Positions 340-50,987 of a DNA stretch of 64,000 nucleotides are shown one piece after another. The stretch's first letter is position 1. Every line of letters starts with the position of its first letter. The notes under the pieces were generated by a model. It ran no database searches and was not told the DNA's origin. It saw only the letters and a list, made by a program, of their open reading frames with translations. The position numbers and the translations under genes are program-made. This DNA is from an uncultured Candidatus Saccharibacteria bacterium (GTDB lineage: Bacteria; Patescibacteriota; Minisyncoccia; 2-02-FULL-40-12; GWA2-44-9). The stretch covers positions 40,048 to 104,047 of the forward strand of contig CAZAUE010000002.1 in NCBI GenBank assembly GCA_964488565.1, given 5' to 3'.

Positions 340-440
340 CTTTTATATTTCAAGAAACTTCAAATATCATATAGAATTATCCAATTTTGTCAACCATAAT
401 TAAAACACCACAGCTCAATCATTTTCCCCATCACCTTCCC

Positions 441-586
441 AACCCCTCGTCAAGCATCCTCTCACTACGCTCGCTCACCCAGCGTGTTCGCTCCCTGCTA
501 TTGCTCATAAGCTCGTCTGTCTACTGACAGACACCATGCCCGCTTATTTCGCAAAAGCCGCTCGAGAATGCATTGGCTCGGGTTAA
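441..586. repeat. left copy of a roughly 165-bp inverted repeat pair (partner 5128..5306)
   Basis: 94 bp are identical to the reverse complement of 5213-5306 (caagcatcctctcactacgctcgctcacccagcgtgttcgctccctgctattgctcataagctcgtctgtctactgacagacaccatgcccgct). A further 42 bp match with 1 mismatch. The copy contains the internal palindrome gtctgtctactgacagac. Confidence 0.85.
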
Positions 587-4885: not shown

Positions 4886-5127
4886 AAAAGTGTATCGCCC
4901 CTCCTACGACTAGTTATGTTTAATATTAGAATAATAACCCTTATGTTTTAAAAAGCAATCTCTAATATCGCTCTCGCCCCTTATTATTTCCGCTCCCCAG
5001 CCACATACTCTTGAAAAACCGCAATTGGTTTTCTCCTGCGAAAAACCATTGCTTCATGCTCAGCGTTCCGAAGAACCAAGCCGAAACGCTTCCGCAACAT
5101 TTTTCAAGAATACGTGACTGGTTCGCT

Positions 5128-5306
5128 TAACCCGAGCCAATGCATTCTCGAACGGCTTTTGCGAAATAGCTCGGAGTGTGCCGTGCTTTAGCCGGCTTAA
5201 CTCTCTGTAGCGGGCATGGTGTCTGTCAGTAGACAGACGAGCTTATGAGCAATAGCAGGGAGCGAACACGCTGGGTGAGCGAGCGTAGTGAGAGGATGCT
5301 TGGAGA
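5128..5306. repeat. right (inverted) copy of the inverted repeat pair; carries a 40-bp extra module
   Basis: Reverse complement matches 441-586. An additional 40 bp (about 5173-5212) contains the GTGCTTTAGCC module also seen at 693-727 and 11303-11336. Confidence 0.85.
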
Positions 5307-5651
5307 GGGGTTGAAGAAATTTTAAGAATCAAAAAAGGCGCAGAACGCCCCTAATAAGTATGTAGTGTGGGCTCTGCGCCTTTGGGTCTCTTGCGAGACA
5401 TGAATTGCCGGCAATCCACGAATGTGTCTGACCACCAGCTAAAGATCTATACTAATTATACAAAGTCATTGGTGACACTGCAATAGCCAAACTGTGGATA
5501 AGGTGACACCATCAAACCATGGTGACATATTCATGGTGACACCATCAAATATTGGCTAATAGTGTCATTATTCCAAATAATCAGCCCCGCCAAGCGGGGC
5601 TGATTATTTACTAAATTTTATGGTGACAACAGGTTATGCACAAACCATCAC

Positions 5652-11358: not shown

Positions 11359-12270
11359 ATGGACATTAAGACACTAAAAATCCAATATCTTGAACATCTA
11401 GAAATAGAGAAGAATCGTTCAGCTAAAACCCTTGAGAATTACGGGCGTTATTTGGATAGATTTTTACAATTCGCAAAAGTTTCCAATCCATCAGGAATTA
11501 CCGAAGATTTAATAAGACAGTACCGACTTCACTTAAACCGCCTGAAAGACAAAGAGGGGAACACTCTAAAAAAAGTCACCCAAAACTATCACATCATTGC
11601 CTTAAGAAATTTTTTGAAGTATTTAGCCAAAAGAGATATAAAATCCGTCCCAGCTGAAAAGGTTGAATTAGGAAAACAAGAAGATAGAGAAGTCACATTT
11701 CTTGAGGCTGATGAATTAGAAAGATTATTAAAATCACCCGAAGGAGATAATTTAGACACATTAAGAGACAGGGCTGTTCTTGGTACTTTGTTTAGTACTG
11801 GCATGCGTGTCTCTGAGCTTTGTTCATTGGATAGAAATAAAATAGACACAACTCGAGGAGAGCTAAGCATACGCGGGAAGGGGAGTAAGATTAGGGTGGT
11901 GTTTCTTTCTGATGACGCCAAAGAAGACATCAGTAAATACCTCTCTAAGCGTTCCGACATTGATGAGGCTCTTTTTATTCGAATTCCTAAATCAAAAACT
12001 TTTTCCAAAGACGACAACTTAAGGCTTACCCCACGAAGCATCCAAAGAATAGTTCAAAAATACGCCACCAAATCCGGCATCATGGGAAAGAGTGTCAGCC
12101 CTCACACCTTGCGTCACAGTTATGCCACCGACCTTCTACGCAATGGTGCCGACATCCGCTCCGTTCAGTCAATGCTCGGACACTCATCCGTCACTACAAC
12201 TCAAATCTATACTCACGTTACAGACAAGCAACTTAGAGAAGTGCACAAGAAATTTCATAACAAAAAATGA
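11359..12270 (+). CDS. xerC: tyrosine recombinase XerC/XerD family
   Basis: N-terminal SAM-like domain. Catalytic region with R...HTLRHSYAT...Y (TQIYTHV). 303 aa. Confidence 0.85.
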   Translation: MDIKTLKIQYLEHLEIEKNRSAKTLENYGRYLDRFLQFAKVSNPSGITEDLIRQYRLHLNRLKDKEGNTLKKVTQNYHIIALRNFLKYLAKRDIKSVPAEKVELGKQEDREVTFLEADELERLLKSPEGDNLDTLRDRAVLGTLFSTGMRVSELCSLDRNKIDTTRGELSIRGKGSKIRVVFLSDDAKEDISKYLSKRSDIDEALFIRIPKSKTFSKDDNLRLTPRSIQRIVQKYATKSGIMGKSVSPHTLRHSYATDLLRNGADIRSVQSMLGHSSVTTTQIYTHVTDKQLREVHKKFHNKK

Positions 12271-13612: not shown

Positions 13613-13702
13613 TGTAAAGGTCCTTCTTTGATACTAATTGCTTACAAAAATACCGCATTTAGCGGTATTGGTAAAGGAGGAGGAAGTCTGGGGGGGACTC
13701 GG

Positions 13703-13880
13703 TCACAGATAATTCTTCACTACTGGGGAGGGACTCGCCCACAAGTTGAATTGTCTTCCGACAATTCTCTTGCGGGCCCAGCTCGTGGTTTCGCTCGCCA
13801 ATTGCTCGCGAAACATCACTGCGCTTTTCGAGTCACTACGCGAGCCAAGCAGTTGGCTCGCTCCCTCGGGCTACTGAGTA
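13703..13880. repeat. GC-rich insert downstream of tRNA-Leu carrying a partial duplicate of the tRNA 3' end
   Basis: ctggggagggactcg at 13723-13737 duplicates the tRNA-Leu T-arm and acceptor sequence (13929-13943). It shares the cccagctcgtggttt...aacatcactgcgcttt module with 32470-32530. GC content is far above the flanks. Confidence 0.6.
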
Positions 13881-13920
13881 GTAAATTAAAATCGCTGTAA
13901 TTACAGCGATTTTAATTTAC
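13881..13920. repeat. perfect 40-bp palindrome (bidirectional hairpin terminator) at the tRNA-Leu 3' end
   Basis: gtaaattaaaatcgctgtaa|ttacagcgattttaatttac: perfect 20-bp arms. Separates tRNA-Leu from the GC-rich insert. Confidence 0.7.
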
Positions 13921-13925
13921 TAAAG

Positions 13926-14007
13926 TGCCCGGGGAGGGACTCGAACCCTCAATCCTTACGGAACACGATTTTAAGTCGTGCGTGTATACCAATTCCACCA
14001 CCCGGGC
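13926..14007 (-). tRNA. tRNA-Leu (anticodon TAA), long variable arm
   Basis: Minus-strand cloverleaf: acceptor gcccggg/cccgggc, anticodon loop cuUAAaa, T arm gaggg-ttcgagt-ccctc. No encoded CCA. Confidence 0.75.
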
Positions 14008-14121: not shown

Positions 14122-14787
14122 GTGTTGGGAACAAAACCATCCAAAAAAGTTATTACTTTTGCCATATCCGACAAGGAATATAAAAAATTTGGCTGTCCTG
14201 TTTGCGGACACGCTACAAGTAAGTGGTCATTCATGGGTGGTGGTGGATTAGTCGTAACATGTAAAAATACTAACTGCGAATCTATTTTTTATATCCTCAT
14301 TGGAAACTTCAAATCTTTTTACGTTAGATTTACCGATAAAACCGGCAAGTGTTTTACCCCAAAACTAGAAACGCATCCACGCAAAAACATACCTGCGTGG
14401 GGTGCAAGAGAGGATAAGAGATCACCAAAGACGGGCGAATTTTTTACGAACCCAAGCCAGTCTGAATATCGACACGGCCTTTGTTTTATTTGCAAAGATG
14501 TTTGCCGACTCCCGATTGACATAGAATGGCCAATGAAAAATCTTTTTTCTGTTAGCTTTAAAACACCCTGCGAAGAAGCGGCAAAAAGAATTCAAAAAAT
14601 CTTTGAAGCAAATGGACTTTGCATAAACACAGTAGGAAGTGGGGAAGAATATCCTCCTTCATTTTATCTTATAAACGTTTCCAGTTGCGTTGCTCACAAA
14701 CCCAATCTCTTAGAACTCCAAAAGGTTGCAAGAGAGAAGGGGGTCATCAACAAGAAAATCCTTTCAAAAATAAAGGCCCTCAAGTAG
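14122..14787 (+). CDS. hypothetical Cys-rich (zinc-finger-like) protein
   Basis: 221 aa with CPVCGH...CKNTNC and further Cys/His clusters. Lies between two tRNA genes. Terminator hairpin at 14788-14820. Confidence 0.4.
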   Translation: MLGTKPSKKVITFAISDKEYKKFGCPVCGHATSKWSFMGGGGLVVTCKNTNCESIFYILIGNFKSFYVRFTDKTGKCFTPKLETHPRKNIPAWGAREDKRSPKTGEFFTNPSQSEYRHGLCFICKDVCRLPIDIEWPMKNLFSVSFKTPCEEAAKRIQKIFEANGLCINTVGSGEEYPPSFYLINVSSCVAHKPNLLELQKVAREKGVINKKILSKIKALK

Positions 14788-16525: not shown

Positions 16526-16615
16526 GGAGACGTGTCAGAGTGGTCTAATGTGCCTCTTTGCTAAAGAGGTGATCGGTTTATCCCGGTCCGGAGGTTCGAA
16601 TCCTCCCGTCTCCGC
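16526..16615 (+). tRNA. tRNA-Ser (anticodon GCT), long variable arm
   Basis: Acceptor ggagacg/cgtctcc, anticodon loop uuGCUaa, long variable arm, T arm ggagg-ttcgaat-cctcc. Confidence 0.75.
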
Positions 16616-16761
16616 AGTGATAAATAAGGACAGCCGGTGGCTGTCCTTATTTAGTATCAATGCGTGATAGGGAGGATGAGAAAGGCGGAGCGCTGGCGCG
16701 AGCCGGGGTCGCGGAATTTTTCAGTAGAAAAATATCTGTGACCGAATCCTCCCGTCTCCGC
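16616..16761. repeat. about 145-bp GC-rich insert after tRNA-Ser ending in a 19-bp duplicate of the tRNA 3' end
   Basis: cgaatcctcccgtctccgc at 16597-16615 is repeated at 16743-16761. The insert begins with a terminator hairpin (aaataaggacagccggtggctgtccttattt) and contains the cgcgagccggggtcgcgg module. Confidence 0.65.
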
Positions 16762-20021: not shown

Positions 20022-20120
20022 GCATTTGTCCAAAAGCGAAGCGATTGGCTACAAATGCTTACCCGCCTAAGGCGGGTGACAAGTTTATAACTATTCGCTT
20101 CGCTCATAGATAAACATGTC

Positions 20121-31808: not shown

Positions 31809-32399
31809 ATGCTAATAAACAACGACAACCTTATAGAGAGTACCGTCTCGAGCTTGTATCAAGTGTCCGATTTTGAAATTGGAAAACTTACGGTTGCTCA
31901 AGCTTTAGAATATCTTCCTGGATTCGGAGCCGATGCAAACTGGAATATCGTAAAAATAATCATGATAGTGATTAGTGTATTGATTGGGATATTTTGGGTA
32001 AGGATATTATTAAAAACAAGAGAATTGTTTTCCACAAAAACAGACCTCTCCAAAAACCTCTTGCCACCATCAGGTACCACATCGGGATTAGATGCTCGTT
32101 GGGTTGAAATTGAGAAACACATTAACTCAACACGTGAAGCAGAATGGAAATTTGCAGTTATAGAAGCGGACAAATTAACTGACGAATTATTAAAATCATC
32201 TGGATTCCAAGGAGACACAATGGGGGATAGACTGATGAATATTCAACCTGGCCAACTAGTGACCATACAAGGCCTCTGGGAGGCTCACAAGATAAGGAAT
32301 CGCCTGGTTCATGATACTAATTACTTCCTACGCTACACTGAAGCAAAAAGAGCTGTCGGTCTATATGAAAAAACTTTAAAAGAATTACAGGCATTATAA
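31809..32399 (+). CDS. membrane-anchored hypothetical protein with a HEPN-like Rx4H motif
   Basis: Central TM helix (IIMIVISVLIGIFWVRILL). C-terminal AHKIRNRLVHD resembles the HEPN R-x4-6-H motif. Terminator aaactccctttagggagtttt follows. Confidence 0.35.
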   Translation: MLINNDNLIESTVSSLYQVSDFEIGKLTVAQALEYLPGFGADANWNIVKIIMIVISVLIGIFWVRILLKTRELFSTKTDLSKNLLPPSGTTSGLDARWVEIEKHINSTREAEWKFAVIEADKLTDELLKSSGFQGDTMGDRLMNIQPGQLVTIQGLWEAHKIRNRLVHDTNYFLRYTEAKRAVGLYEKTLKELQAL

Positions 32400-32569
32400 A
32401 ACTCCCTTTAGGGAGTTTTATAATCTGGTGGTCACAAGTATTTTTCCTGACGGAAAAATCTCGCGACCCCAGCTCGTGGTTTTTGCCTTTCGCTATCGCT
32501 CAAACAAAAACATCACTGCGCTTTCCAAAAGCTAAAAATCTAAAGCAGTTTAGATTTTCTGACGCTTTG

Positions 32570-32640
32570 TGGACCTACCGAGAGTCGAACTCGGCCCTCT
32601 TCCATGCCATGGAAGCGTAATACCGATTTACTATAGGCCC
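32570..32640 (-). tRNA. tRNA-Ala (anticodon GGC)
   Basis: Acceptor gggccua with a G3:U70 pair (Ala identity), anticodon loop auGGCau, T arm ccgag-ttcgact-ctcgg. Confidence 0.7.
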
Positions 32641-32804
32641 GAACGAGGATGTGGGAATGTTTTACATTCACATCATCCGAGTGAAGGGTATATACCTCTT
32701 GGTATAGGCCCTAATCCCATCAAAACTATACAAACATCATTCTCTTAATTTAATTGAAAAAATACCACAAAAATGCTACTATATCAAGATAAATTAACTT
32801 ATTC

Positions 32805-32876
32805 GCCCTCGTAGTTCAATGGATAGAACAAATCCGTCCTAAGGATAAAATGGGGGTCCGATTCCCTCCGAGGGCA
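32805..32876 (+). tRNA. tRNA-Arg (anticodon CCT)
   Basis: Acceptor gccctcg/cgagggc, D arm with GG, anticodon loop guCCUaa. The T loop reads tccgatt (C at position 55), which is unusual, so confidence is moderate. Confidence 0.55.
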
Positions 32877-33031
32877 CAAATTATGTTACGTTTTACGTAA
32901 AGCAAGTGAACTGCTTCACTTGCGTCAGAATTTGTGAGTTCGGAACTTATGACAGTCAATAGACTGTCATGTGAGAACGGGGTCGCGACCGAGCCAAGCG
33001 ACGGCGAGGCGAGAGTTGTGACCAAAAAGAT

Positions 33032-34540: not shown

Positions 34541-34710
34541 CTGGAGCAACGCGAAAGGAGGGGTGCAGCAAACAAACTACTTTGTTTGCGTCGAGAAGTG
34601 AAAAGCGGAGCGATATTTCTCGAACAGTTGGTGAGAGAAATCGCGAGCTGGGCCTGCGACCGAGCCGACGGAAGTCGGCGAGAGTTGTAGGCAAATCCCG
34701 GCGGCCCGAC
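34541..34710. repeat. about 170-bp GC-rich insert after tRNA-Pro ending in a perfect 19-bp duplicate of the tRNA 3' end
   Basis: caaatcccggcggcccgac at 34523-34541 is repeated at 34692-34710. The insert carries the gcgaccgagcc...cggcgagagttgt module shared with 32985-33020. Confidence 0.7.
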
Positions 34711-34720
34711 AAGCATCTGG

Positions 34721-35215
34721 TCAGTTAGGCTTTTTTCTTATTATTATTTTTATAGCTCTTTTCATGGTTTCAAAAATAACTGGAAGTTCAAGATAGTCTA
34801 TAGATATGGCTAGCCATGCAACGATATGGTTCCAGTGACCCACCAAACTTGCGTAACCCAAAACCTGGATAACCATTTCGTCGGTTATCCATAAAATATG
34901 CAACCACTGAACATTCAAGAAAATAAGGAAAAACAAATCTTTCCTGTTTGGTTTAATTTTGTATGATCTTAGATACACCAAAGAAGTTGCCACTATGGCC
35001 GGAATTTCAGTATAATCAACAACCGCTATGGTAGTATTGAAAAGGTGATTAATTAAAAACGGGGCAACGTCAAAAATTCTAGGAATTACCACGTTTGTAG
35101 TCAACCACAGAAGATGAATCAGTTGAATTGAAAATAATGCCCCAGCAAAGACAACATTGAAATCATCATGGTTGTCATACCACCTTAAAAATTTGCGCAC
35201 GATATTAGAAAACAT
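34721..35215 (-). CDS. hypothetical polytopic membrane protein
   Basis: 164 aa, 4-5 predicted TM helices. No recognisable family. Confidence 0.4.
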   Translation of the reverse strand: MFSNIVRKFLRWYDNHDDFNVVFAGALFSIQLIHLLWLTTNVVIPRIFDVAPFLINHLFNTTIAVVDYTEIPAIVATSLVYLRSYKIKPNRKDLFFLIFLNVQWLHILWITDEMVIQVLGYASLVGHWNHIVAWLAISIDYLELPVIFETMKRAIKIIIRKKPN

Positions 35216-35254: not shown

Positions 35255-35326
35255 GGGCCCGCCCTCACACCTACTTAGCACTGAGGGCCTCCGGCCCTAA
35301 AGTGTTATTGTGCTAAGTAGGTGTGA
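35255..35326. repeat. 65-bp palindromic insert flanked by a 7-bp direct repeat (gggcccg) at the 5' end of tRNA-Ala(CGC)
   Basis: Perfect 20-bp arms ccctcacacctacttagcac / gtgctaagtaggtgtgaggg (35262-35281 / 35310-35329) with a GC hairpin in the loop. gggcccg at 35255-35261 duplicates the tRNA acceptor 5' strand at 35327-35333. Confidence 0.65.
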
Positions 35327-35397
35327 GGGCCCGTAGTTAAGTGGCATAACGCGACATTCGCATTGTCGAGGCGGGAGTTCGATTCTCCCCGGGTCCA
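35327..35397 (+). tRNA. tRNA-Ala (anticodon CGC)
   Basis: Acceptor gggcccg/cgggucc with G3:U70, anticodon stem cgaca/tgtcg, loop uuCGCau, T arm gggag-ttcgatt-ctccc. Confidence 0.7.
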
Positions 35398-42282: not shown

Positions 42283-44741
42283 TGATAAAAATAAAACTAT
42301 CAAAACTTAGTTTATTATTTGTACTAATCGCGGTGAGCGCAATGGTTTTGCTTCCAACACATCCAGTTAATGCCGCGTGTATTGCTGGATTTTTCCCCAT
42401 AACAGACTGCATTCTTGTGGGAACATCCTATCTTGTTTATTTAGTATTCACGATAGTTGGTCAAGGCATCGCTGCTCTGGTTGGGGTTCTTCAGTGGGTT
42501 ATAAATCTTCCTGTTTACCCAGCTGACGGCCAGAGAATCGCTGTTATTGATGAAAGTTGGAAAATAATGAGAGACTTTGCCAACATGTTTTTCATCTTAG
42601 CTCTTATTCTGATGGCGTTTGCAACTATTTTTGACGTTCTTCCTGGAGCGGCTAAATATAATGCTCGGGCTTTGTTCGGTAAATTTATTTTTACAGCACT
42701 TCTTATAAATTTCAGTCTAGTGCTCGGGGTTATGGTTATTCAAGGAACTCAAGTTCTAAATAATACATTTCTGACATCAATAGGGGACATGTCTAGTCAA
42801 TTGGGGCAAGCATTAAATCCGTCACTTTTACTTCCAAATATTAGTTCCGCAACAATTTCCCAAGCAGTAGATCAGGGCTTGTTTGGATCTCTTATTTCAC
42901 TAGTATTTGCTGTTGTTTTGGCTTTTACTTTTTTATTCAGTCTTTTGACAGCAGTTATCTTTTCCTTCATTAGAATTCCGATTCTCTGGGCCCTGTTAGT
43001 GATTTCACCGATTGCCTGGATTTTAAATATTTTTCCGGCAGGAGAAGGTATGTTTAAAAAATGGTGGAGTACATTCATAGGTTGGAATATGTTTCTTCCA
43101 ATCTTTCTGTTTTTCCTTTATTTCGGTCTTTATTTCCTTAAGAGCCAAGGCACCACAATGCAGGCAATAGCAGGAAGCTCTGGTACTGGTACTATTCTGG
43201 GTGACACTGTCACAAGTTTCACTTTTCAAATGTTGTTCATGTATGTCATGGCAGGAATATTCTTAATTGGTGGAACAATCGTCGCCATGAAAGCATCTAT
43301 GTTGTCTGGAACTGGAGTGCTGGGAATTGCGAAGTGGTCACGAGGAAAAGCGGCGCGCTGGACAGGATTAACCGGAGCAAATCAAGCTTGGCAGGAAAAG
43401 AGAAAAGAAATTGAAGGAGGAGAGGGGAGATTGGGCAGAATTTTTGGTGGTCCACCGATGGGACTTGAGTCATCCAGAAGACTGCTCGGTGTCAGAGGAG
43501 GAGATTACAAAACCCAAAAGGAATTCGTTGATAGGGCTGGAAAAGAATATGACCTTATTCAAAATCAATATGACACTGGCAAAATTAGTGTTAATGACAT
43601 AGTTGCCCGAGCTAGCCAAGGAAGTGCTACTAATCCAGAGACATACGCCTACAGAAAAATGGCTGCCAAAATGGGTAAACTTACTGATCCTATTTTTGAA
43701 AAAACAGTTAACGACTTGTCGGAAAATCCTTATGCTCTGCAAGACTTTATTAAAACAGCCAAAGAGGGCAAGTTTTCCGATGTTGGTGCTGGTACAATAC
43801 TTGATTTTGCCTCTCGACAAGGTGGTTTTGCGAATACCGGACCCAATGCACTTCCAGGTAGACGAGAAACATATAGACACATTCAGTCTAATGCCAAAAT
43901 AATGTCTAATCCGAGATTTGGTCAAAGTGAATTCAATCAAGGTGTAGACATTTTTGGCGGACATACAACCGCTGAAGGTCAAAGCTTCTTAGAAGATGTT
44001 GGCAAAACCAGACCTGACTTGGTCATAGATTACAATATGGGAAATGAGGATGTAATGAGAAAGATAAACGATAGAAGGAGAGAAGAGGGTAAAAATCCAG
44101 TTACTCGTTCAGAAATGTTTGATGGTTATATTAAAGACGCAAAAGATATCGCCAACCTTCCCAAGACTGTGTGGACAAATCAAGACTTTCAAAAAGCTCT
44201 CGAAAGAAAACTGTCTTTCGGTAGCCCCAAGGCTCAAAGAAATTTCCGAAACCGTATCATTGATAACCTTAGGACTGCCATGAACGGCGAGGACAAGAAA
44301 AATATTTTAAACACATTGTCAGGAGCTAGAGATGATGGACAAACACCAGACAATGACAACTTTGGAGAAGACGACTTGGATTTAGATAACGATGAAACTC
44401 CACCAACAGGGGGTGGTCCTGGTCCAACAACACCGCCAACCCCAACAACTCCTCGAACTAACAATGTAAACCCTAACAACGTCGTTAATTTAAGAAACCC
44501 CACAACTCAAAACACTAGGGGGTCAGGATGGCTATCTGATGTACAACAAAACATTGAGAGGCTCGGCAAACAAGAATTTACACTTGAAGATGCGTATAGT
44601 TTTGAGGGCGAACTAAGCACACTTCATCCTGAAAATAAATTTGTAAAAGATAAAATCCGACAACAACTACAGGTTCTACGTGATAAAGGATACCTTGAAT
44701 TTACTGGCCCAGGAAAATACCGAATAAAAAATAGCCCATGA
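42282..44741 (+). CDS. VirB6/TrbL-like polytopic membrane protein with large C-terminal hydrophilic extension
   Basis: N-terminal signal or TM segment plus about 7 further TM helices over about 330 aa (the VirB6/TrbL architecture). Then a roughly 450-aa soluble domain containing a PT-rich linker (GGGPGPTTPPTPTTP). Position immediately upstream of VirB3-like and VirB4 genes. Confidence 0.5.
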   Translation: MIKIKLSKLSLLFVLIAVSAMVLLPTHPVNAACIAGFFPITDCILVGTSYLVYLVFTIVGQGIAALVGVLQWVINLPVYPADGQRIAVIDESWKIMRDFANMFFILALILMAFATIFDVLPGAAKYNARALFGKFIFTALLINFSLVLGVMVIQGTQVLNNTFLTSIGDMSSQLGQALNPSLLLPNISSATISQAVDQGLFGSLISLVFAVVLAFTFLFSLLTAVIFSFIRIPILWALLVISPIAWILNIFPAGEGMFKKWWSTFIGWNMFLPIFLFFLYFGLYFLKSQGTTMQAIAGSSGTGTILGDTVTSFTFQMLFMYVMAGIFLIGGTIVAMKASMLSGTGVLGIAKWSRGKAARWTGLTGANQAWQEKRKEIEGGEGRLGRIFGGPPMGLESSRRLLGVRGGDYKTQKEFVDRAGKEYDLIQNQYDTGKISVNDIVARASQGSATNPETYAYRKMAAKMGKLTDPIFEKTVNDLSENPYALQDFIKTAKEGKFSDVGAGTILDFASRQGGFANTGPNALPGRRETYRHIQSNAKIMSNPRFGQSEFNQGVDIFGGHTTAEGQSFLEDVGKTRPDLVIDYNMGNEDVMRKINDRRREEGKNPVTRSEMFDGYIKDAKDIANLPKTVWTNQDFQKALERKLSFGSPKAQRNFRNRIIDNLRTAMNGEDKKNILNTLSGARDDGQTPDNDNFGEDDLDLDNDETPPTGGGPGPTTPPTPTTPRTNNVNPNNVVNLRNPTTQNTRGSGWLSDVQQNIERLGKQEFTLEDAYSFEGELSTLHPENKFVKDKIRQQLQVLRDKGYLEFTGPGKYRIKNSP

Positions 44742-45046
44742 GATTTCAATTACCACAATTTATTGAGACAGAGACCAAAATAATTGGTCCGTTTACTCTT
44801 CAACAATTCCTGTGGATTGCCGGCGGGGTAGCTTTCATTTTTTTGTTCTATACTTTAATCAAGGGGGTTTTATTCTTCTTTCTTGCAATTCCGGTGGCTG
44901 TAATTTTCGGAGCCCTGGCCTTTGTTAAAATAGATGGCGTTCCGCTTATTGTTTATGCATCTTATAGTATTTCTTATTTCACGAATCCCAAAAAATATGT
45001 TTTCAAAAAAGACGATGAGGGTATAAAAGATTACACTAAGCAATAG
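44738..45046 (+). CDS. VirB3-like small two-TM membrane protein
   Basis: 102 aa with two hydrophobic helices. Encoded directly upstream of the VirB4 ATPase, as VirB3/PrgI-type proteins are. Confidence 0.4.
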   Translation: MRFQLPQFIETETKIIGPFTLQQFLWIAGGVAFIFLFYTLIKGVLFFFLAIPVAVIFGALAFVKIDGVPLIVYASYSISYFTNPKKYVFKKDDEGIKDYTKQ

Positions 45047-45054
45047 ATACAAGC

Positions 45055-45711
45055 ATGGCAACCCAATCCACCAAACAATTAGTCGAAATTTCTAACATCA
45101 TAGACAATGTTGTTTTACTAAAAAACGGATCATTAAGATCTGTGATTGAGGTTACAGCAATAAACTTTGAGCTCCGCTCAGAAGGGGAGCAGATAGCCAT
45201 TCTTCAGAATTTTCAACGATTTGTAAATTCAATAGATTTTCCACTTCAGATAGTAATTAACTCCAGAAAGTTAAACATAGACGAGTATGTTAAGTTTGTT
45301 GAAAAATCTTCAGGCGAACTTACCAATGAATTGTTAAAAATACAGGCCACGGAGTATTCCAAATTCATTAAGGAGCTTTCCGACCTTTCTAATATCATGT
45401 CCAAGAAATTCTATATTGTTATACCTTTCTATGTTTTTGAGGCGCCTTCAAAGGCGGGGATAACCCAAAGCTTAAAAAGTATATTCAAACCCTCTACTGT
45501 TGCAAAAGAGCTTACTCCAGAACAATTGGAAACCTACAAAAGCCAACTTCTTCAAAGAACTGAACTGATTTTTGATGGCTTGGTTGGAATGGGACTAAAA
45601 ACAAGAACATTAGAAAAGGATGACTTAATGAATCTTTTCTATGGACTATATAATCCATCCACTAAAAGCGATTTTAAAAGCACTGAAGATAACACGCTAG
45701 ACTTAAAATAA
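45055..45711 (+). CDS. VirB4/TraC-type ATPase, N-terminal domain (separate ORF)
   Basis: IIDNVVLLKNGSLRSVIEVTAINFELRSEGEQIAILQNFQRFVNSIDFPLQIVI resembles the N-terminal domain of Gram-positive-type VirB4 (ConE/PrgJ/TcpF-like). Ends in TAATG overlapping the next start in a different frame. Confidence 0.6.
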   Translation: MATQSTKQLVEISNIIDNVVLLKNGSLRSVIEVTAINFELRSEGEQIAILQNFQRFVNSIDFPLQIVINSRKLNIDEYVKFVEKSSGELTNELLKIQATEYSKFIKELSDLSNIMSKKFYIVIPFYVFEAPSKAGITQSLKSIFKPSTVAKELTPEQLETYKSQLLQRTELIFDGLVGMGLKTRTLEKDDLMNLFYGLYNPSTKSDFKSTEDNTLDLK

Positions 45712-47456
45712 TGGATATCGGACAAAATAAAAAATTAGACGAATTGTTTGCCCCTTCGGCTTTCAGCGTTTCACCTAACTATTTTCAGATAGGGGATAGA
45801 TATGCTCGCACGATCTTTCTTGCAACTTATCCGCGCTATCTCCAAACCAGTTGGTTTTCACCGGTAATAAATCTTGACCGAGTATTTGATGTTTCGATTT
45901 TTATATTACCAAAAAATACGGCCACGGTTCTCAAGCAGTTACGAGACCAGCTGGCCAGACTCCAATCTCAAGTGATGGAGGAATCCTCAAAGGGAAAAGT
46001 TCGTGATCCAATGCTTGAGACGGCTATCCAAGACATAGAGACACTAAGAGACAAACTCCAGCAAGGAACTGATAAGTTCTTTGAACTTGGGGTCTATATT
46101 ACGATTTATGAAAACAGCGTAAAAGAATTAGATGAAACTGAAAATAAAATTAAAGGTTTTTTGGAATATCAACTAGTCTATCCGAAACCGGCTATTTTCA
46201 GAATGAATGAAGGTTTTAATTCAACCCTTCCTATTAATGACGACCAGCTTAATGTTCACACCTCACTAAACACAGAGCCACTTTCTTCTTTGTTTCCGTT
46301 CGTTTCTTTTGACCTGACATCCGATTCGGGAATCCTTTATGGCATAAACACACACAATAATTCACTAGTCTTGTTCGACAGATTTGGTTTAGAAAACGCC
46401 AATGCTGTAGTTTTTGGAAAATCTGGAGGTGGTAAAAGCTATACAATCAAGTTGGAAATATTAAGAAGTCTTCTTTTTGGAACTCAGGTTTTAATTATTG
46501 ATCCAGAAAACGAATACAAATATCTCTCAGACACAATTGGAGGATCGTCGATAAAAATTTCGATTAATTCAGACCAACACATCAATCCATTTGATTTACC
46601 AACACCAAAATCCGACGAGTCGCCGGCTGACGTTTTCAAATCCCACATTTTAGAGCTTACTGGTCTTTTAAGACTCATGCTCGGAGAACTAACCCCAGAA
46701 GAGTCAGCCATCTTAGATGAAGCTCTTATCCAGACATATGCCATCAAGGACATAACTCCAGAATCAGATTTCTCTCAGTCATCTCCACCATTACTTTCTG
46801 ACCTTCAAAGTATTCTTGAGGGATTAACTGGGGCAGAATCAATGGCCATAAGACTACGAAAGTATACACAGGGAACTTATTCAGGGTTCTTGAATAAGCC
46901 AACCAACGTATCTCTTGATAATCAACTCATTACGTTTAGTATACGAGAAATGGAAGAGGAGTTAAGACCTATCGCCATGTACCTAATCTTGAATTTTATG
47001 TGGGTAACAATAAGAAGAACCCTCAAGAAACGCATTCTTGTTGTTGATGAGGCTTGGGTACTTATGAAATATGAAGTTGGCGCAAACTTTTTATCCAATA
47101 TCGCCAAGAGAGCTCGAAAATATTATGCTGGGCTGACAACAATCACTCAAGACATACCCGATTTCCTCTCATCGCCACAAGGAAAAACTATTCTGAGTAA
47201 TTCTTCAATACAAGTACTAATGAAGCAGTCGCCATCATCAATTGAGGTGGTAAAAGAAACCTTCAACCTAACTGATGCTGAAAAATATTACCTATTAGAG
47301 GCACGTGTAGGTTTTGGATTATTCTTCCTTGGGCAAAATCATATCGGCATTAGGGTTGTTGCCTCTTATGCTGAAGATCAAATAATTACTTCTGATCCAC
47401 GCCAAATACTTGAGATAGAAAAGGCAAAAGAGGAGTGGGCTAAATTAAGAGGGTAA
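45711..47456 (+). CDS. VirB4/TraC/CagE-type T4SS ATPase, C-terminal ATPase domain
   Basis: Walker A VVFGKSGGGKS, Walker B RILVVDEAW, a TQ sensor motif (LTTITQD), and VirB4-type linker regions. 581 aa. Together with the 218-aa ORF it makes about 799 aa, the size of a full VirB4. Confidence 0.75.
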   Translation: MDIGQNKKLDELFAPSAFSVSPNYFQIGDRYARTIFLATYPRYLQTSWFSPVINLDRVFDVSIFILPKNTATVLKQLRDQLARLQSQVMEESSKGKVRDPMLETAIQDIETLRDKLQQGTDKFFELGVYITIYENSVKELDETENKIKGFLEYQLVYPKPAIFRMNEGFNSTLPINDDQLNVHTSLNTEPLSSLFPFVSFDLTSDSGILYGINTHNNSLVLFDRFGLENANAVVFGKSGGGKSYTIKLEILRSLLFGTQVLIIDPENEYKYLSDTIGGSSIKISINSDQHINPFDLPTPKSDESPADVFKSHILELTGLLRLMLGELTPEESAILDEALIQTYAIKDITPESDFSQSSPPLLSDLQSILEGLTGAESMAIRLRKYTQGTYSGFLNKPTNVSLDNQLITFSIREMEEELRPIAMYLILNFMWVTIRRTLKKRILVVDEAWVLMKYEVGANFLSNIAKRARKYYAGLTTITQDIPDFLSSPQGKTILSNSSIQVLMKQSPSSIEVVKETFNLTDAEKYYLLEARVGFGLFFLGQNHIGIRVVASYAEDQIITSDPRQILEIEKAKEEWAKLRG

Positions 47457-50908: not shown

Positions 50909-50987
50909 AGTGAGTGGTTACAATTATCAGCACCCGCCTTAGGCGGGTAACTTTTTGTTTCCAATCGCTAAGCTCTTGGACAAAAAG

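What the first reader, a model, noticed from the sequence alone, without database searches (positions are those of the whole stretch)
32440..33031. Family of GC-rich intergenic modules shared between tRNA-flanking inserts
Module A (cccagctcgtggttt ... aaacatcactgcgcttt) is present next to tRNA-Leu at 13770-13845 and next to tRNA-Ala at 32470-32530. Module B (gcgaccgagcc ... cggcgag..gagagttgt) is present after tRNA-Arg at 32985-33020, after tRNA-Pro at 34640-34690, in diverged form after tRNA-Ser at 16690-16720, and around 760-800. These blocks are 55-65% GC in a sub-40% GC genome and encode nothing. They behave like a dispersed repeat family tied to tRNA loci, which is unexpected in a reduced genome.
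Basis: seen in the sequence. Interest (0 to 1): 0.6.

Follow-up and report, generated by a model that had tools for sequence, protein, structure and literature searches.

The report
Structured mobile inserts behind tRNA genes
The GC-rich blocks are copies of one small, protein-less, tightly folded element that sits directly behind tRNA genes, carries arms copied from the tRNA it sits next to, and comes and goes between related genomes of ultra-small (CPR) bacteria; it looks like an undescribed kind of tRNA-targeting selfish element.

Summary
The repeat is real, but "module A" and "module B" are the two halves of ONE unit read on opposite strands. A covariance model finds exactly five units in the window. 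Each lies 40-100 nt downstream of a tRNA gene on the tRNA's strand: Leu, Ser, Ala-GGC, Arg and Pro. The block at 760-800 is not a member.

The unit is a conserved three-way junction of about 90 nt: AAGCGSAGYGAU, hairpin P2, CRCGAGCUGG, long hairpin P3. In 87 copies, 96% of cells pair and 18 of 19 pairs show compensatory changes. It is preceded by a hairpin with a CUGC tetraloop and by 9-14 nt antisense to the local tRNA's 3' region. In three window copies it is followed by an exact 12-18-nt copy of the tRNA 3' end, starting at T-loop position 57.

The family occurs across many Patescibacteria lineages and some Elusimicrobia. It matches no Rfam family, no viral contig and no paper I found, and has no linked protein gene. 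Orthologous tRNA loci in close relatives are mostly empty. An identical 97-nt unit sits at a different tRNA-Ala gene in another genome.

Best reading: a non-autonomous, site-specific insertion element for tRNA 3' ends, moved in trans as a folded single strand. The enzyme and chemistry are unknown.

The parts
13925..14007 (-). tRNA-Leu(taa), target of a type I element
   Evidence: ARAGORN; Rfam tRNA
13840..13861 (-). Leu element: hairpin H1 (GCGAGCCAA-CUGC-UUGGCUCGC) with the family's CUGC tetraloop
13827..13839 (-). Leu element: antisense arm (GTAGTGACTCGAA). 8 nt are complementary to the tRNA-Leu T-loop TTCGAGTC.
13737..13829 (-). Leu element: three-way-junction unit (P1/P2/P3)
   Evidence: R1 75.8 bits; fold z -6.6
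13725..13736 (-). Direct copy of the tRNA-Leu 3' part from position 57 (GAGTCCCTCCCC)
13690..13724 (-). Older, 5'-truncated unit: the last 24 nt of a P3 hairpin ending CTGTGACC, plus a second, decayed tRNA-Leu 3' copy (GAGTCCCCCCC)
   Evidence: (I13)
16526..16615 (+). tRNA-Ser(gct), target of a type I element
16670..16682 (+). Ser element: antisense arm GGGAGGATGAGAA, 11 of 13 nt complementary to TTCGAATCCTCCC
16680..16743 (+). Ser element: unit with P2 deleted
   Evidence: R1 51.6 bits
16744..16761 (+). Exact 18-nt copy of the tRNA-Ser 3' end (positions 57 to the 3' end)
32569..32640 (-). tRNA-Ala(ggc), target of a type II element
32524..32569 (-). Ala element: extended hairpin H1 (CAAAGCG..AAAAUCUAAA-CUGC-UUUAGAUUUU..GCUUUUGGA). 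Its outer stem pairs with the tRNA's last nucleotides.
32430..32526 (-). Ala element: unit, 97/97 identical to L087 4638-4734
   Evidence: R1 74 bits; identity
32805..32877 (+). tRNA-Arg(cct), target of a type II element
32875..32936 (+). Arg element: H1 (GCAAGUGAA-CUGC-UUCACUUGC) with outer stem CACAAAUU/AAUUUGUG pairing the tRNA end and trailer
32934..33023 (+). Arg element: unit with a degenerate 5' half and intact P3. It ends 8 nt before the CCA-adding enzyme start codon.
   Evidence: R1 43.1 bits
34469..34541 (+). tRNA-Pro(cgg), target of a type I element
34568..34602 (+). Pro element: H1 (GCAAACAAA-CUAC-UUUGUUUGC) plus a decayed antisense arm GTCGAGAAGTGAA
34600..34692 (+). Pro element: unit
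   Evidence: R1 76.5 bits; fold z -4.9
34693..34710 (+). Exact 18-nt copy of the tRNA-Pro 3' end. It is followed by CAAG, the native trailer seen directly after tRNA-Pro in relatives.

Best explanation
The blocks are copies of a family of small (about 130-170 nt), non-coding, highly structured, non-autonomous insertion elements that target the 3' end of tRNA genes on the tRNA-sense strand.

Anatomy, 5' to 3':
- Hairpin H1 with a conserved CUGC tetraloop.
- A segment ending a fixed 21-23 nt after that loop, complementary to the local tRNA across the insertion junction. In type I it is the reverse complement of T54-N65. In type II it is T plus the complement of the last three acceptor nucleotides.
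- A conserved three-way-junction core: P1 AGC/GCU, P1b GYG/CRC, P2, P3.
- A 3' terminus that imitates a tRNA 3' end. In type I it is a real copy of positions 57 to the 3' end of the tRNA. In type II it is helix P3 (..GACC) followed by A.

Shown: the fold, the tRNA linkage, the target-derived arms, the presence/absence turnover, and the transfer of an identical copy between different tRNA-Ala genes.

Inferred: the element moves as a folded single strand (DNA or RNA). Its antisense arm pairs with the tRNA 3'-end sequence and positions the joint. This resembles the guide pairing of IS200/IS605 ends, a group I internal guide sequence, or the folded attP/attC sites of CTX phage and integrons. An enzyme supplied in trans by the host genome or another element would do the chemistry. 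The tRNA stays intact, so the insert is tolerated. The displaced or duplicated 3' fragment and the arms then decay.
For: Fold. RNAalifold finds 11 of 19 pairs compensated in 34 copies. On 87 copies, 96.3% of cells pair, 18 of 19 pairs show double changes, 0 of 500 shuffles reach the observed values, and slid controls pair at 25-54%. A conserved G.U pair in P3 (74 of 85) places the fold on the tRNA-sense strand.

Linkage. 54 of 87 units lie within 120 nt downstream of a same-strand tRNA, covering 17 tRNA identities, and none lies by an opposite-strand tRNA.

Arms. The sense copy starts exactly at position 57 in about 20 loci. The antisense arm starts at T54 and runs 11-14 nt in about 18 loci. 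In type II the nucleotides abutting AAGCG pair with the tRNA's last nucleotides in about 20 of 26 units.

Spacing. The distance from the H1 loop to the unit is 21-23 nt in 51 of 58 units. The CUGC loop occurs in 48 of 85.

Insertion polymorphism. In the closest relatives, tRNA-Arg abuts the CCA-enzyme gene and tRNA-Pro abuts tRNA-Ala(cgc). Only 2 units are found in 80 related loci (436 kb). The native trailer CAAG follows the second tRNA-Pro copy.

Independent insertions. tRNA-Leu carries different elements in the window (two) and in L174, and none in L175-L177.

Recent transfer. The window Ala-GGC unit is 97/97 identical to L087's unit behind tRNA-Ala(cgc), while the CCA enzymes are only 83% identical.

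Arrays and secondary targets. Tandem and nested arrays occur in L035, L037, L064 and L021. In L021 a type II element is inserted behind a displaced tRNA 3' copy.

No linked gene. Clustering ORFs from about 60 loci gives no recurrent protein family.
Against: - No transposase, integrase, reverse transcriptase or nuclease is linked to the units, and none was seen in the 64-kb window apart from a syntenic Xer-type recombinase.
- No circular or excised form was observed.
- How the antisense arm comes to match each local tRNA is unexplained.
- Copies within the window are only about 45-70% identical to each other, so there was no recent burst here.
- Some genomes carry a unit behind every tRNA in view (L025: 5 of 5), which would also fit a useful function.
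- Units sit on both strands of one replichore (5 copies), which is not what a strictly lagging-strand ssDNA transposon predicts.
Confidence: 0.6

Rival explanations
1. It is a functional cis-acting RNA in the tRNA 3' trailer. The unit would be co-transcribed with the tRNA. Its antisense arm could pair either with the tRNA's own T-arm or acceptor end, or with the downstream decoy copy. That would make a processing, quality-control or ligand- or protein-responsive switch, or a tRNA-like minihelix handled by RNase P, RNase Z or the CCA-adding enzyme.
For: - Strong covariation, and a conserved G.U pair on the tRNA-sense strand.
- The unit is always on the tRNA's strand and downstream of it.
- In type I the native terminator follows the second copy, so read-through transcription would include the unit (L048, L005, L055; L174).
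- Type II units end in helix + A(CCA).
- Core sequence is 86-92% conserved across phyla.
- All tRNAs in view carry a unit in L025.
Against: - Orthologous tRNA loci in close relatives lack the unit: 2 units in 80 loci.
- Different, independently inserted units occupy the same tRNA in sister genomes.
- The decoy copy and the antisense arm decay at similar rates, each perfect in about half of loci.
- Truncated and nested copies exist.
- In type II a terminator-like A-tract/hairpin/T-tract lies between the tRNA and the unit.
Confidence: 0.2
2. The units are scars of ordinary integrase-type integrative elements (prophages, ICEs). Such elements recombine in the tRNA T-loop and leave attL/attR with a duplicated tRNA 3' end. 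The conserved block would be the arm of attP.
For: The duplication runs from the T-loop to the exact tRNA 3' end, the classic pattern for tRNA-integrating elements (established knowledge, Williams 2002). The native trailer follows the second copy. A tyrosine recombinase gene lies at 11359-12270.
Against: - The whole insert is 130-170 nt at every locus, with no cargo and no integrase inside.
- The recombinase at 11359-12270 is syntenic in relatives that lack units, so it is Xer-like.
- Type II junctions share only 1-5 nt with the target, too little for a tyrosine-recombinase overlap.
- Covarying hairpins are not expected of double-stranded arm sites.
- No hit in 2.9 million viral contigs.
Confidence: 0.08
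3. It is an orphan guide RNA of an RNA-guided nuclease or recombinase, in the style of TnpB/IscB omega-RNA, Cas12k homing crRNA or an IS110 bridge RNA. The unit would be the scaffold. The tRNA-derived arm would be the guide, with GGTTC as the adjacent motif.
For: A scaffold followed by a 17-20-nt exact match to the tRNA gene, which in the gene is preceded by GGTT(C). A fixed-length variable segment lies between conserved blocks. Cas12k transposons are known to home to tRNA genes with short delocalised crRNAs (established knowledge, Saito 2021).
Against: - No TnpB, IscB, Cas12 or DEDD recombinase gene near any of about 60 loci or in the window.
- No match to omega-RNA or HEARO families in Rfam.
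- The guide would target the intact tRNA gene 150 nt away, which is self-targeting.
- Type II copies have no 3' guide.
- The sense and antisense arms cover the same positions, unlike the left and right guides of a bridge RNA.
Confidence: 0.07
4. The similarities are chance matches or low-complexity GC-rich similarity between unrelated intergenic regions.
For: The 760-800 block and the plain-sequence similarity of the Ser copy are indeed at chance level.
Against: Model scores are 43-77 bits in the window against <=10 bits for background. There are 87 copies with covariation in independent genomes.
Confidence: 0.01

Closest known systems
Integrase-type integrative elements at tRNA genes (genomic islands, prophages; T-loop sublocation)
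   Same: They insert at the 3' part of a tRNA gene, leave the tRNA intact, and produce a direct repeat running from the T-loop to the tRNA 3' end. Repeated insertions build arrays.
   Different: This element is 130-170 nt with no integrase or cargo. It has a conserved covarying three-way-junction fold and an internal arm antisense to the target. A second insertion mode after A73 has almost no shared core.
IS200/IS605 ends, their miniature derivatives (PATEs), and REP/BIME elements with RAYT
   Same: They are small, strand-specific, hairpin-rich elements without classical terminal inverted repeats. The target and the element end are recognised by base pairing with a short internal guide next to a hairpin foot. 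A single-copy enzyme can act in trans.
   Different: No Y1 HUH transposase or RAYT was seen. The guide is up to 14 nt. The target is a tRNA 3' end. Type I carries or creates a 12-23-nt target copy. No replication-strand bias is visible.
Folded single-strand recombination sites: integron attC and CTX-phage attP(+)
   Same: An inverted arm, a structured loop and a direct arm fold into a duplex that imitates the double-stranded target. The layout after insertion (direct site, loop, inverted site, body, direct site) matches type I.
   Different: There are no RYYYAAC/GTTRRRY core sites, no dif-like site, no IntI and no phage body. The 'genome' would be only about 95 nt.
Group I intron internal guide sequence (P1/P10) and tRNA introns of Patescibacteria (PMC13011429)
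   Same: One antisense segment pairs with the sequence on both sides of the junction. The element's own 5' end and the downstream flank are alternative partners. The host is a tRNA gene in the same phylum.
   Different: The unit is far too small for a group I core and gives no Rfam intron hit. The tRNA is complete upstream, so no splicing is needed. The known Patescibacteria introns sit in the anticodon loop.
Free-standing homing-endonuclease cassettes that replace part of a tRNA gene (e.g. T4 SegB region; seen here in L063 and L085)
   Same: They are selfish inserts at tRNA genes that keep the tRNA functional by supplying or duplicating part of it. They occur in the same genomes.
   Different: Those cassettes encode LAGLIDADG or GIY-YIG enzymes and lack the unit. 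The unit family encodes nothing.

Membership tests
Any Rfam 15 RNA family | Covariance-model score at or above the gathering threshold | tested here: not met
   Only tRNAs pass in the whole window. E<=10 scans over three unit regions give only tRNA and noise.
MITE | Fixed terminal inverted repeats shared by all copies and derived from a parent IS | tested here: not met
   The inverted arms (antisense arm versus tRNA copy) differ at every locus and match the local tRNA. No parent IS was found in about 0.5 Mb of loci.
MITE | Short target-site duplication of fixed length | tested here: not met
   The repeat is 0-5 nt in type II, 7 nt in L064 and 12-23 nt in type I.
tRNA-integrating integrase element | Direct repeat of the tRNA 3' part bounding the element | tested here: met
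   18-nt exact repeats at Pro and Ser and a 12-nt repeat at Leu. About 20 loci elsewhere.
tRNA-integrating integrase element | Element-encoded tyrosine or serine integrase next to att | tested here: not met
   The inserts are 130-170 nt. No integrase family recurs near units. The window's recombinase is syntenic in unit-free relatives.
IS200/IS605-derived PATE or REP | Y1 HUH transposase (TnpA or RAYT) in the genome | not testable with these tools
   Only a 64-kb window and loci of at most 8 kb are available, and none was seen there.
IS200/IS605-derived PATE or REP | Insertion 3' of a short motif that pairs with an internal guide beside a hairpin | tested here: inconclusive
   Type II inserts after NNN-A73, and the 4 nt before the unit are complementary to it in about 20 of 26 units. 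Type I geometry does not fit simply.
IS200/IS605-derived PATE or REP | Orientation bias relative to replication (lagging-strand template) | tested here: not met
   Units lie on both strands on the same side of dnaA, 2 minus and 3 plus, with n = 5 only.
Integron attC | R''/R' core sites RYYYAAC...GTTRRRY, and IntI | tested here: not met
   The arms are GGATTYGAA...RAATCC or tRNA-end sequences. No IntI was seen.
Group I intron | P3-P9 catalytic core with a G-binding site | tested here: not met
   The unit has two hairpin arms and about 90 nt. There is no Intron_gpI hit.
TnpB/IscB omega-RNA or Cas12k crRNA | Adjacent or co-resident RNA-guided nuclease gene | tested here: not met
   None in the window or in about 60 loci. 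The rest of each genome could not be examined.
Riboswitch or cis-regulatory leader | Retention at orthologous loci of related genomes | tested here: not met
   2 units in 80 orthologous regions. Different units sit at the same tRNA-Leu in sister genomes.

The most novel reading that the evidence does not exclude
This would be a new class of protein-less mobile element, a 'tRNA-tail parasite'. It would use an internal guide to splint its own 5' end to the 3' end of a tRNA sequence, and it ends in a tRNA-like 3' terminus. On this reading its mobility depends on host tRNA-end enzymes such as RNase Z or P, the CCA-adding enzyme or a ligase, or on catalysis by the conserved three-way junction itself. 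It would move as a small, possibly circular, single-stranded RNA or DNA. Retargeting to another tRNA would then need only a change in a few guide nucleotides.
Probability: 0.25. Interest if true: 0.92.

Novelty: new variant of a known kind. Interest (0 to 1): 0.8.

Why it matters
CPR/Patescibacteria genomes are about 1 Mb and are thought to be poor in repeats and transposons. Here a single structured element occupies the 3' flank of most tRNA genes in some genomes and is shared with Elusimicrobia.

If it is mobile DNA, it is a site-specific, base-pairing-guided insertion system with no known enzyme. Such a system is a candidate for a programmable integration mechanism. It would also be a useful marker of horizontal exchange among uncultivated bacteria.

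If it is a functional RNA, it is one of the most widespread unannotated RNA motifs in a major branch of bacterial diversity, and it bears on how these organisms make tRNAs.

There are practical consequences too. The duplicated tRNA 3' ends and the units will confuse tRNA and att-site annotation and island callers. The covariance model built here can annotate them.

Tried and rejected
- Rfam, at gathering thresholds and at E<=10: only tRNAs.
- Viral contigs, two patterns: 0 hits, then 8 chance hits that the model rejects.
- About 20 non-CPR pattern hits in genome contigs (Pseudomonas, Eubacterium and others): they lie inside ORFs and the model rejects them; only L030 is marginal at 28 bits.
- The block at 715-800 as a family member: rejected.
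- A linked protein family: none. The best cluster occurs in 6 of about 60 loci and is housekeeping.
- LAGLIDADG gene in L063 as part of the element: rejected. It belongs to a separate tRNA-replacement cassette upstream of an old tRNA fragment.
- The variable ORFs next to tRNAs in the window and in relatives as shared cargo: they are unrelated to each other.
- The idea that the 22 nt before the unit are antisense to the whole tRNA 3' part (positions 54-76): only positions 54-65 match, and 66-75 are at chance, except in L061.
- H1 stems created anew at each insertion: rejected. H1 travels with the unit in the window/L087 pair.
- A kissing loop between the H1 and P2 loops: not above the shuffled control, 43% against 37 +/- 5%.
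- Promoter and terminator scans: uninformative.
- Empty site for the Ser locus: not usable, because the tRNA-Ser segment is inverted relative to relatives.
- Same-species contigs (L172, L173): they carry the same units, so no strain polymorphism was seen.
- Literature: six searches, including raw sequence strings, found no description.

Full report
CONTEXT. The window is a 39% GC chromosome segment of a Patescibacteria (CPR) bacterium. It comes from Rifle groundwater metagenomes. By IF-2 similarity it is closest to Candidatus Yanofskybacteria/Paceibacteria. It carries housekeeping genes, including IF-2, PNPase, GatCA, the CCA-adding enzyme, type IV pilus genes and dnaA/dnaN. It has seven tRNA genes.

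OBSERVATION. The shared stretches are real. However, module A as written is the reverse complement of the 5' half of a unit, and module B is the 3' half of the same unit. Read in the direction of the neighbouring tRNA, the Pro, Leu and Ala-GGC loci contain both halves.

I built a covariance model (R1) from 34 copies, 31 of them from other genomes. With filters off it finds exactly five units in the window:
- Pro, 34600-34692, + strand, 76.5 bits
- Leu, 13737-13829, - strand, 75.8 bits
- Ala-GGC, 32430-32526, - strand, 74.0 bits
- Ser, 16680-16743, + strand, 51.6 bits, with P2 deleted
- Arg, 32934-33023, + strand, 43.1 bits, with a degenerate 5' half

The next best hit scores 10 bits. The block near 760-800 is not a member. 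Unit GC is 47-58%.

ANATOMY. The core is a three-way junction:
- (GAA)AAGCG-S-AG-YG-AU
- hairpin P2
- CRC-GA-GCU-GG
- long hairpin P3, with 5' strand GGYYGCGR, a variable inner hairpin, and 3' strand YUYGURRYC

Single-sequence folds have z scores of -4.5 to -6.6. On 87 copies, 96.3% of cells form standard pairs and 18 of 19 pairs show changes on both sides. No shuffle out of 500 reaches the observed measures, and sliding the 3' partners drops pairing to 25-54%. A G.U pair in P3 is kept in 74 of 85 distinct copies, and a second pair alternates between G.U and G-C. The fold is therefore on the tRNA-sense strand.

Upstream of the core lies hairpin H1. Its stem sequence is free, but its tetraloop is CUGC in 48 of 85 copies, with CUAC in 5 and CUUC in 2. 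The loop ends 21-23 nt before AAGCG in 51 of 58 scorable copies.

FLANKS DERIVE FROM THE LOCAL tRNA. There are two arrangements.

Type I (window: Pro, Leu, Ser):
- The 11-14 nt before the core are the reverse complement of the tRNA's T54-N65 and always end in GAA, the complement of TTC.
- The core is followed at once by a sense copy of the tRNA from position 57 to its 3' end.
- In the window this copy is 18 nt exact for Pro and Ser and 12 nt for Leu.

Type II (window: Ala-GGC, Arg):
- The tRNA's A73 is followed by CAAA(G)C, an internal loop, an A-tract, a stem, CUGC, a stem, a T-tract, G(C)TTTG, then T-N'N'N'.
- N'N'N' complements the last three acceptor nucleotides of the local tRNA. Examples are TGGA for Ala (TCCA), TGGG for Val, TCCG for Lys and TGCG for Arg.
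- The core ends ..GTGACC followed by A.

The same core subfamily, 86-92% identical, occurs with type I flanks in L003 and L018 and with type II flanks in the window, L087, L019 and L076. L064 shows an intermediate form whose element ends in a 7-nt copy of the tRNA-Leu end. In both types the element ends like a tRNA 3' terminus, and its internal antisense segment spans the left junction.

DISTRIBUTION. An exact pattern scan of 185,579 species genomes returned 83 loci.
- About 60 are Patescibacteria of many classes (Saccharibacteria, Paceibacterota, Yanofsky-, Moran-, Nomura-, Kaiser- and Yonathbacteria), three are Elusimicrobia, and one is a MAG labelled Gammaproteobacteria.
- The remaining hits lie in ORFs of unrelated bacteria and are rejected by R1.
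- R1 finds 87 units in 65 loci. Of these, 54 lie within 120 nt downstream of a same-strand tRNA and 10 more within 400 nt in arrays. None lies beside an opposite-strand tRNA. Seventeen tRNA identities are represented.
- In L025 all five tRNA genes in 8 kb carry one.
- No Rfam family matches and no viral contig carries the unit.
- Clustering ORFs from about 60 loci reveals no recurrent neighbouring protein.
- The window contains no transposase, reverse transcriptase or RNA-guided nuclease. Its only recombinase is a Xer-like gene that is syntenic in relatives.

EVIDENCE FOR INSERTION AND TURNOVER. I retrieved 80 metagenomic loci encoding relatives of the window's CCA-adding enzyme, at 88-58% identity.
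- In the closest relatives (L084, L087, L089), tRNA-Arg ends 9 nt before the enzyme gene, against 154 nt with a unit in the window.
- In the same relatives, tRNA-Pro lies 12-44 nt from tRNA-Ala(cgc), against 785 nt in the window.
- The native trailer CAAG follows tRNA-Pro directly in the relatives. In the window it follows the second copy of the tRNA-Pro end.
- R1 finds only two units in these 436 kb. One is L087, behind tRNA-Ala(cgc), which is unit-free in the window. The other is L090, a type I unit behind tRNA-Ala(ggc), where the window has a type II unit.
- The L087 unit is 97/97 identical to the window's Ala-GGC unit, and its H1 differs at only 2-3 positions. The two genomes' CCA enzymes are only 83% identical. 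Both tRNAs end in GGTCCA.
- At tRNA-Leu(taa), the window has one complete and one truncated unit. The sister genome L174 (IF-2 92% identical) has a different unit, and L175-L177 have none.
- L089 retains what looks like a deletion scar of a type II H1.
- Arrays occur in L035, L037, L064 and L021. In L021 a type II element lies behind a displaced tRNA 3' copy, so the bare 3'-end sequence suffices as a target.
- The antisense arm and the sense copy are each perfect in about half of the type I loci and decayed in the rest. This argues against maintenance of either arm after insertion.

INTERPRETATION. The data fit a non-autonomous, site-specific insertion element for tRNA 3' ends better than they fit a conserved cis-regulatory RNA. 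The covarying fold, the strand specificity and the fixed geometry of loop, guide and core indicate that a folded single strand is the active form.

In that fold the antisense arm pairs with the tRNA 3'-end sequence. The partner can be either the tRNA's own end, which extends H1, or the downstream copy, which closes the three-way junction. This places the junction inside a duplex. The same principle is used by IS200/IS605 ends, group I internal guide sequences, integron attC sites and CTX-phage attP(+). None of those families' defining features is met (see the membership table).

Open points:
- Whether the strand is DNA or RNA, and which enzyme acts.
- Whether type I inserts at position 56|57 carrying a fresh tRNA 3' part or after A73 carrying the copy. 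In L174 the distal copy keeps the ancestral acceptor sequence while the functional tRNA has changed on both strands. This fits the first option slightly better.
- How the guide comes to match each tRNA. Possibilities are single-nucleotide guide changes before a move (compare L026 TGGA with L043 TGGG on cores about 80-84% identical), quasi-palindrome correction after insertion, or copying of the target.

RIVALS. A functional trailer RNA keeps about 0.2 probability because of the strong sequence conservation and the saturation of tRNAs in some genomes. Integrase scars and orphan guide RNAs are each below 0.1. Chance is excluded for the five tRNA-linked copies.

NOVELTY. I found no description in Rfam 15 or in six full-text searches, including searches for the motif's sequence strings. 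The only related paper on Patescibacteria tRNA genes concerns group I introns in the anticodon loop (PMC13011429). I file the element as a new variant of small site-specific mobile elements. There is a substantial chance that its mechanism is of a new kind.

Noticed in passing
window 35256-35333: A 64-nt insert with a 19-bp perfect palindromic stem abuts the 5' end of tRNA-Ala(cgc). It is flanked by a 7-nt direct repeat GGGCCCG, the tRNA's first 7 nt. It is absent in relatives L084, L087 and L089. It looks like a different small insertion element that targets the tRNA 5' end.
   Followed up: partly
window 440-586 and 5127-5313: An inverted repeat of about 147 nt at 98% identity brackets 4.5 kb holding YraN/UPF0102, LysM-M23 peptidase, an unknown ORF and ComM-like genes.
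   Followed up: partly
window 20025-20078 (+) and 50931-50984 (-): A second small intergenic repeat of 54 nt at 85% identity ends in the hairpin CACCCGCCTTAGGCGGGTG. One copy lies between rpmH and rnpA and the other lies upstream of a pilus ATPase gene.
   Followed up: no
L063 461-1291; L085 1600-1980; L175 5254-5898, L176 5197-5841, L177 5035-5796 and 6924-7595: LAGLIDADG and GIY-YIG homing-endonuclease ORFs lie beside tRNA genes in relatives. In L063 and L085 a new tRNA copy accompanies the ORF and a truncated old copy remains. tRNA genes in this clade are hot spots for several kinds of selfish insert.
   Followed up: partly
window 16526-16761 versus L174-L176: The tRNA-Ser(gct) gene with its unit is inverted relative to the comF-tRNA-Ser-infB order of close relatives.
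   Followed up: no
L035 2004-2160 and 3734-3830: A third, unrelated structured core (GCCCCATTGAGCC...CAATGGGGGC ACTGACCCTGTAAGGGTC) has the same layout: hairpins, an arm antisense to the T-loop (CAGGACTCGAA) and a sense tRNA copy. The flank logic is therefore shared by more than one core family.
   Followed up: no
window 13879-13922: A perfect 44-nt palindrome (two 22-nt arms with no loop) lies directly after tRNA-Leu, between the tRNA and the unit.
   Followed up: no
window 34721-35215 (-), 31809-32399 (+), 14122-14787 (+): ORFs without Pfam hits occupy tRNA flanks next to units. Relatives have unrelated ORFs (dUTPase, small unknown proteins) at the same positions, so tRNA flanks are variable cargo sites.
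   Followed up: partly
window 44738-47456: PrgI-like and VirB4/TraG-like ATPase genes, a type IV secretion or conjugation-like cluster, lie next to an 819-aa protein with a DpnI-type C-terminal domain.
   Followed up: no
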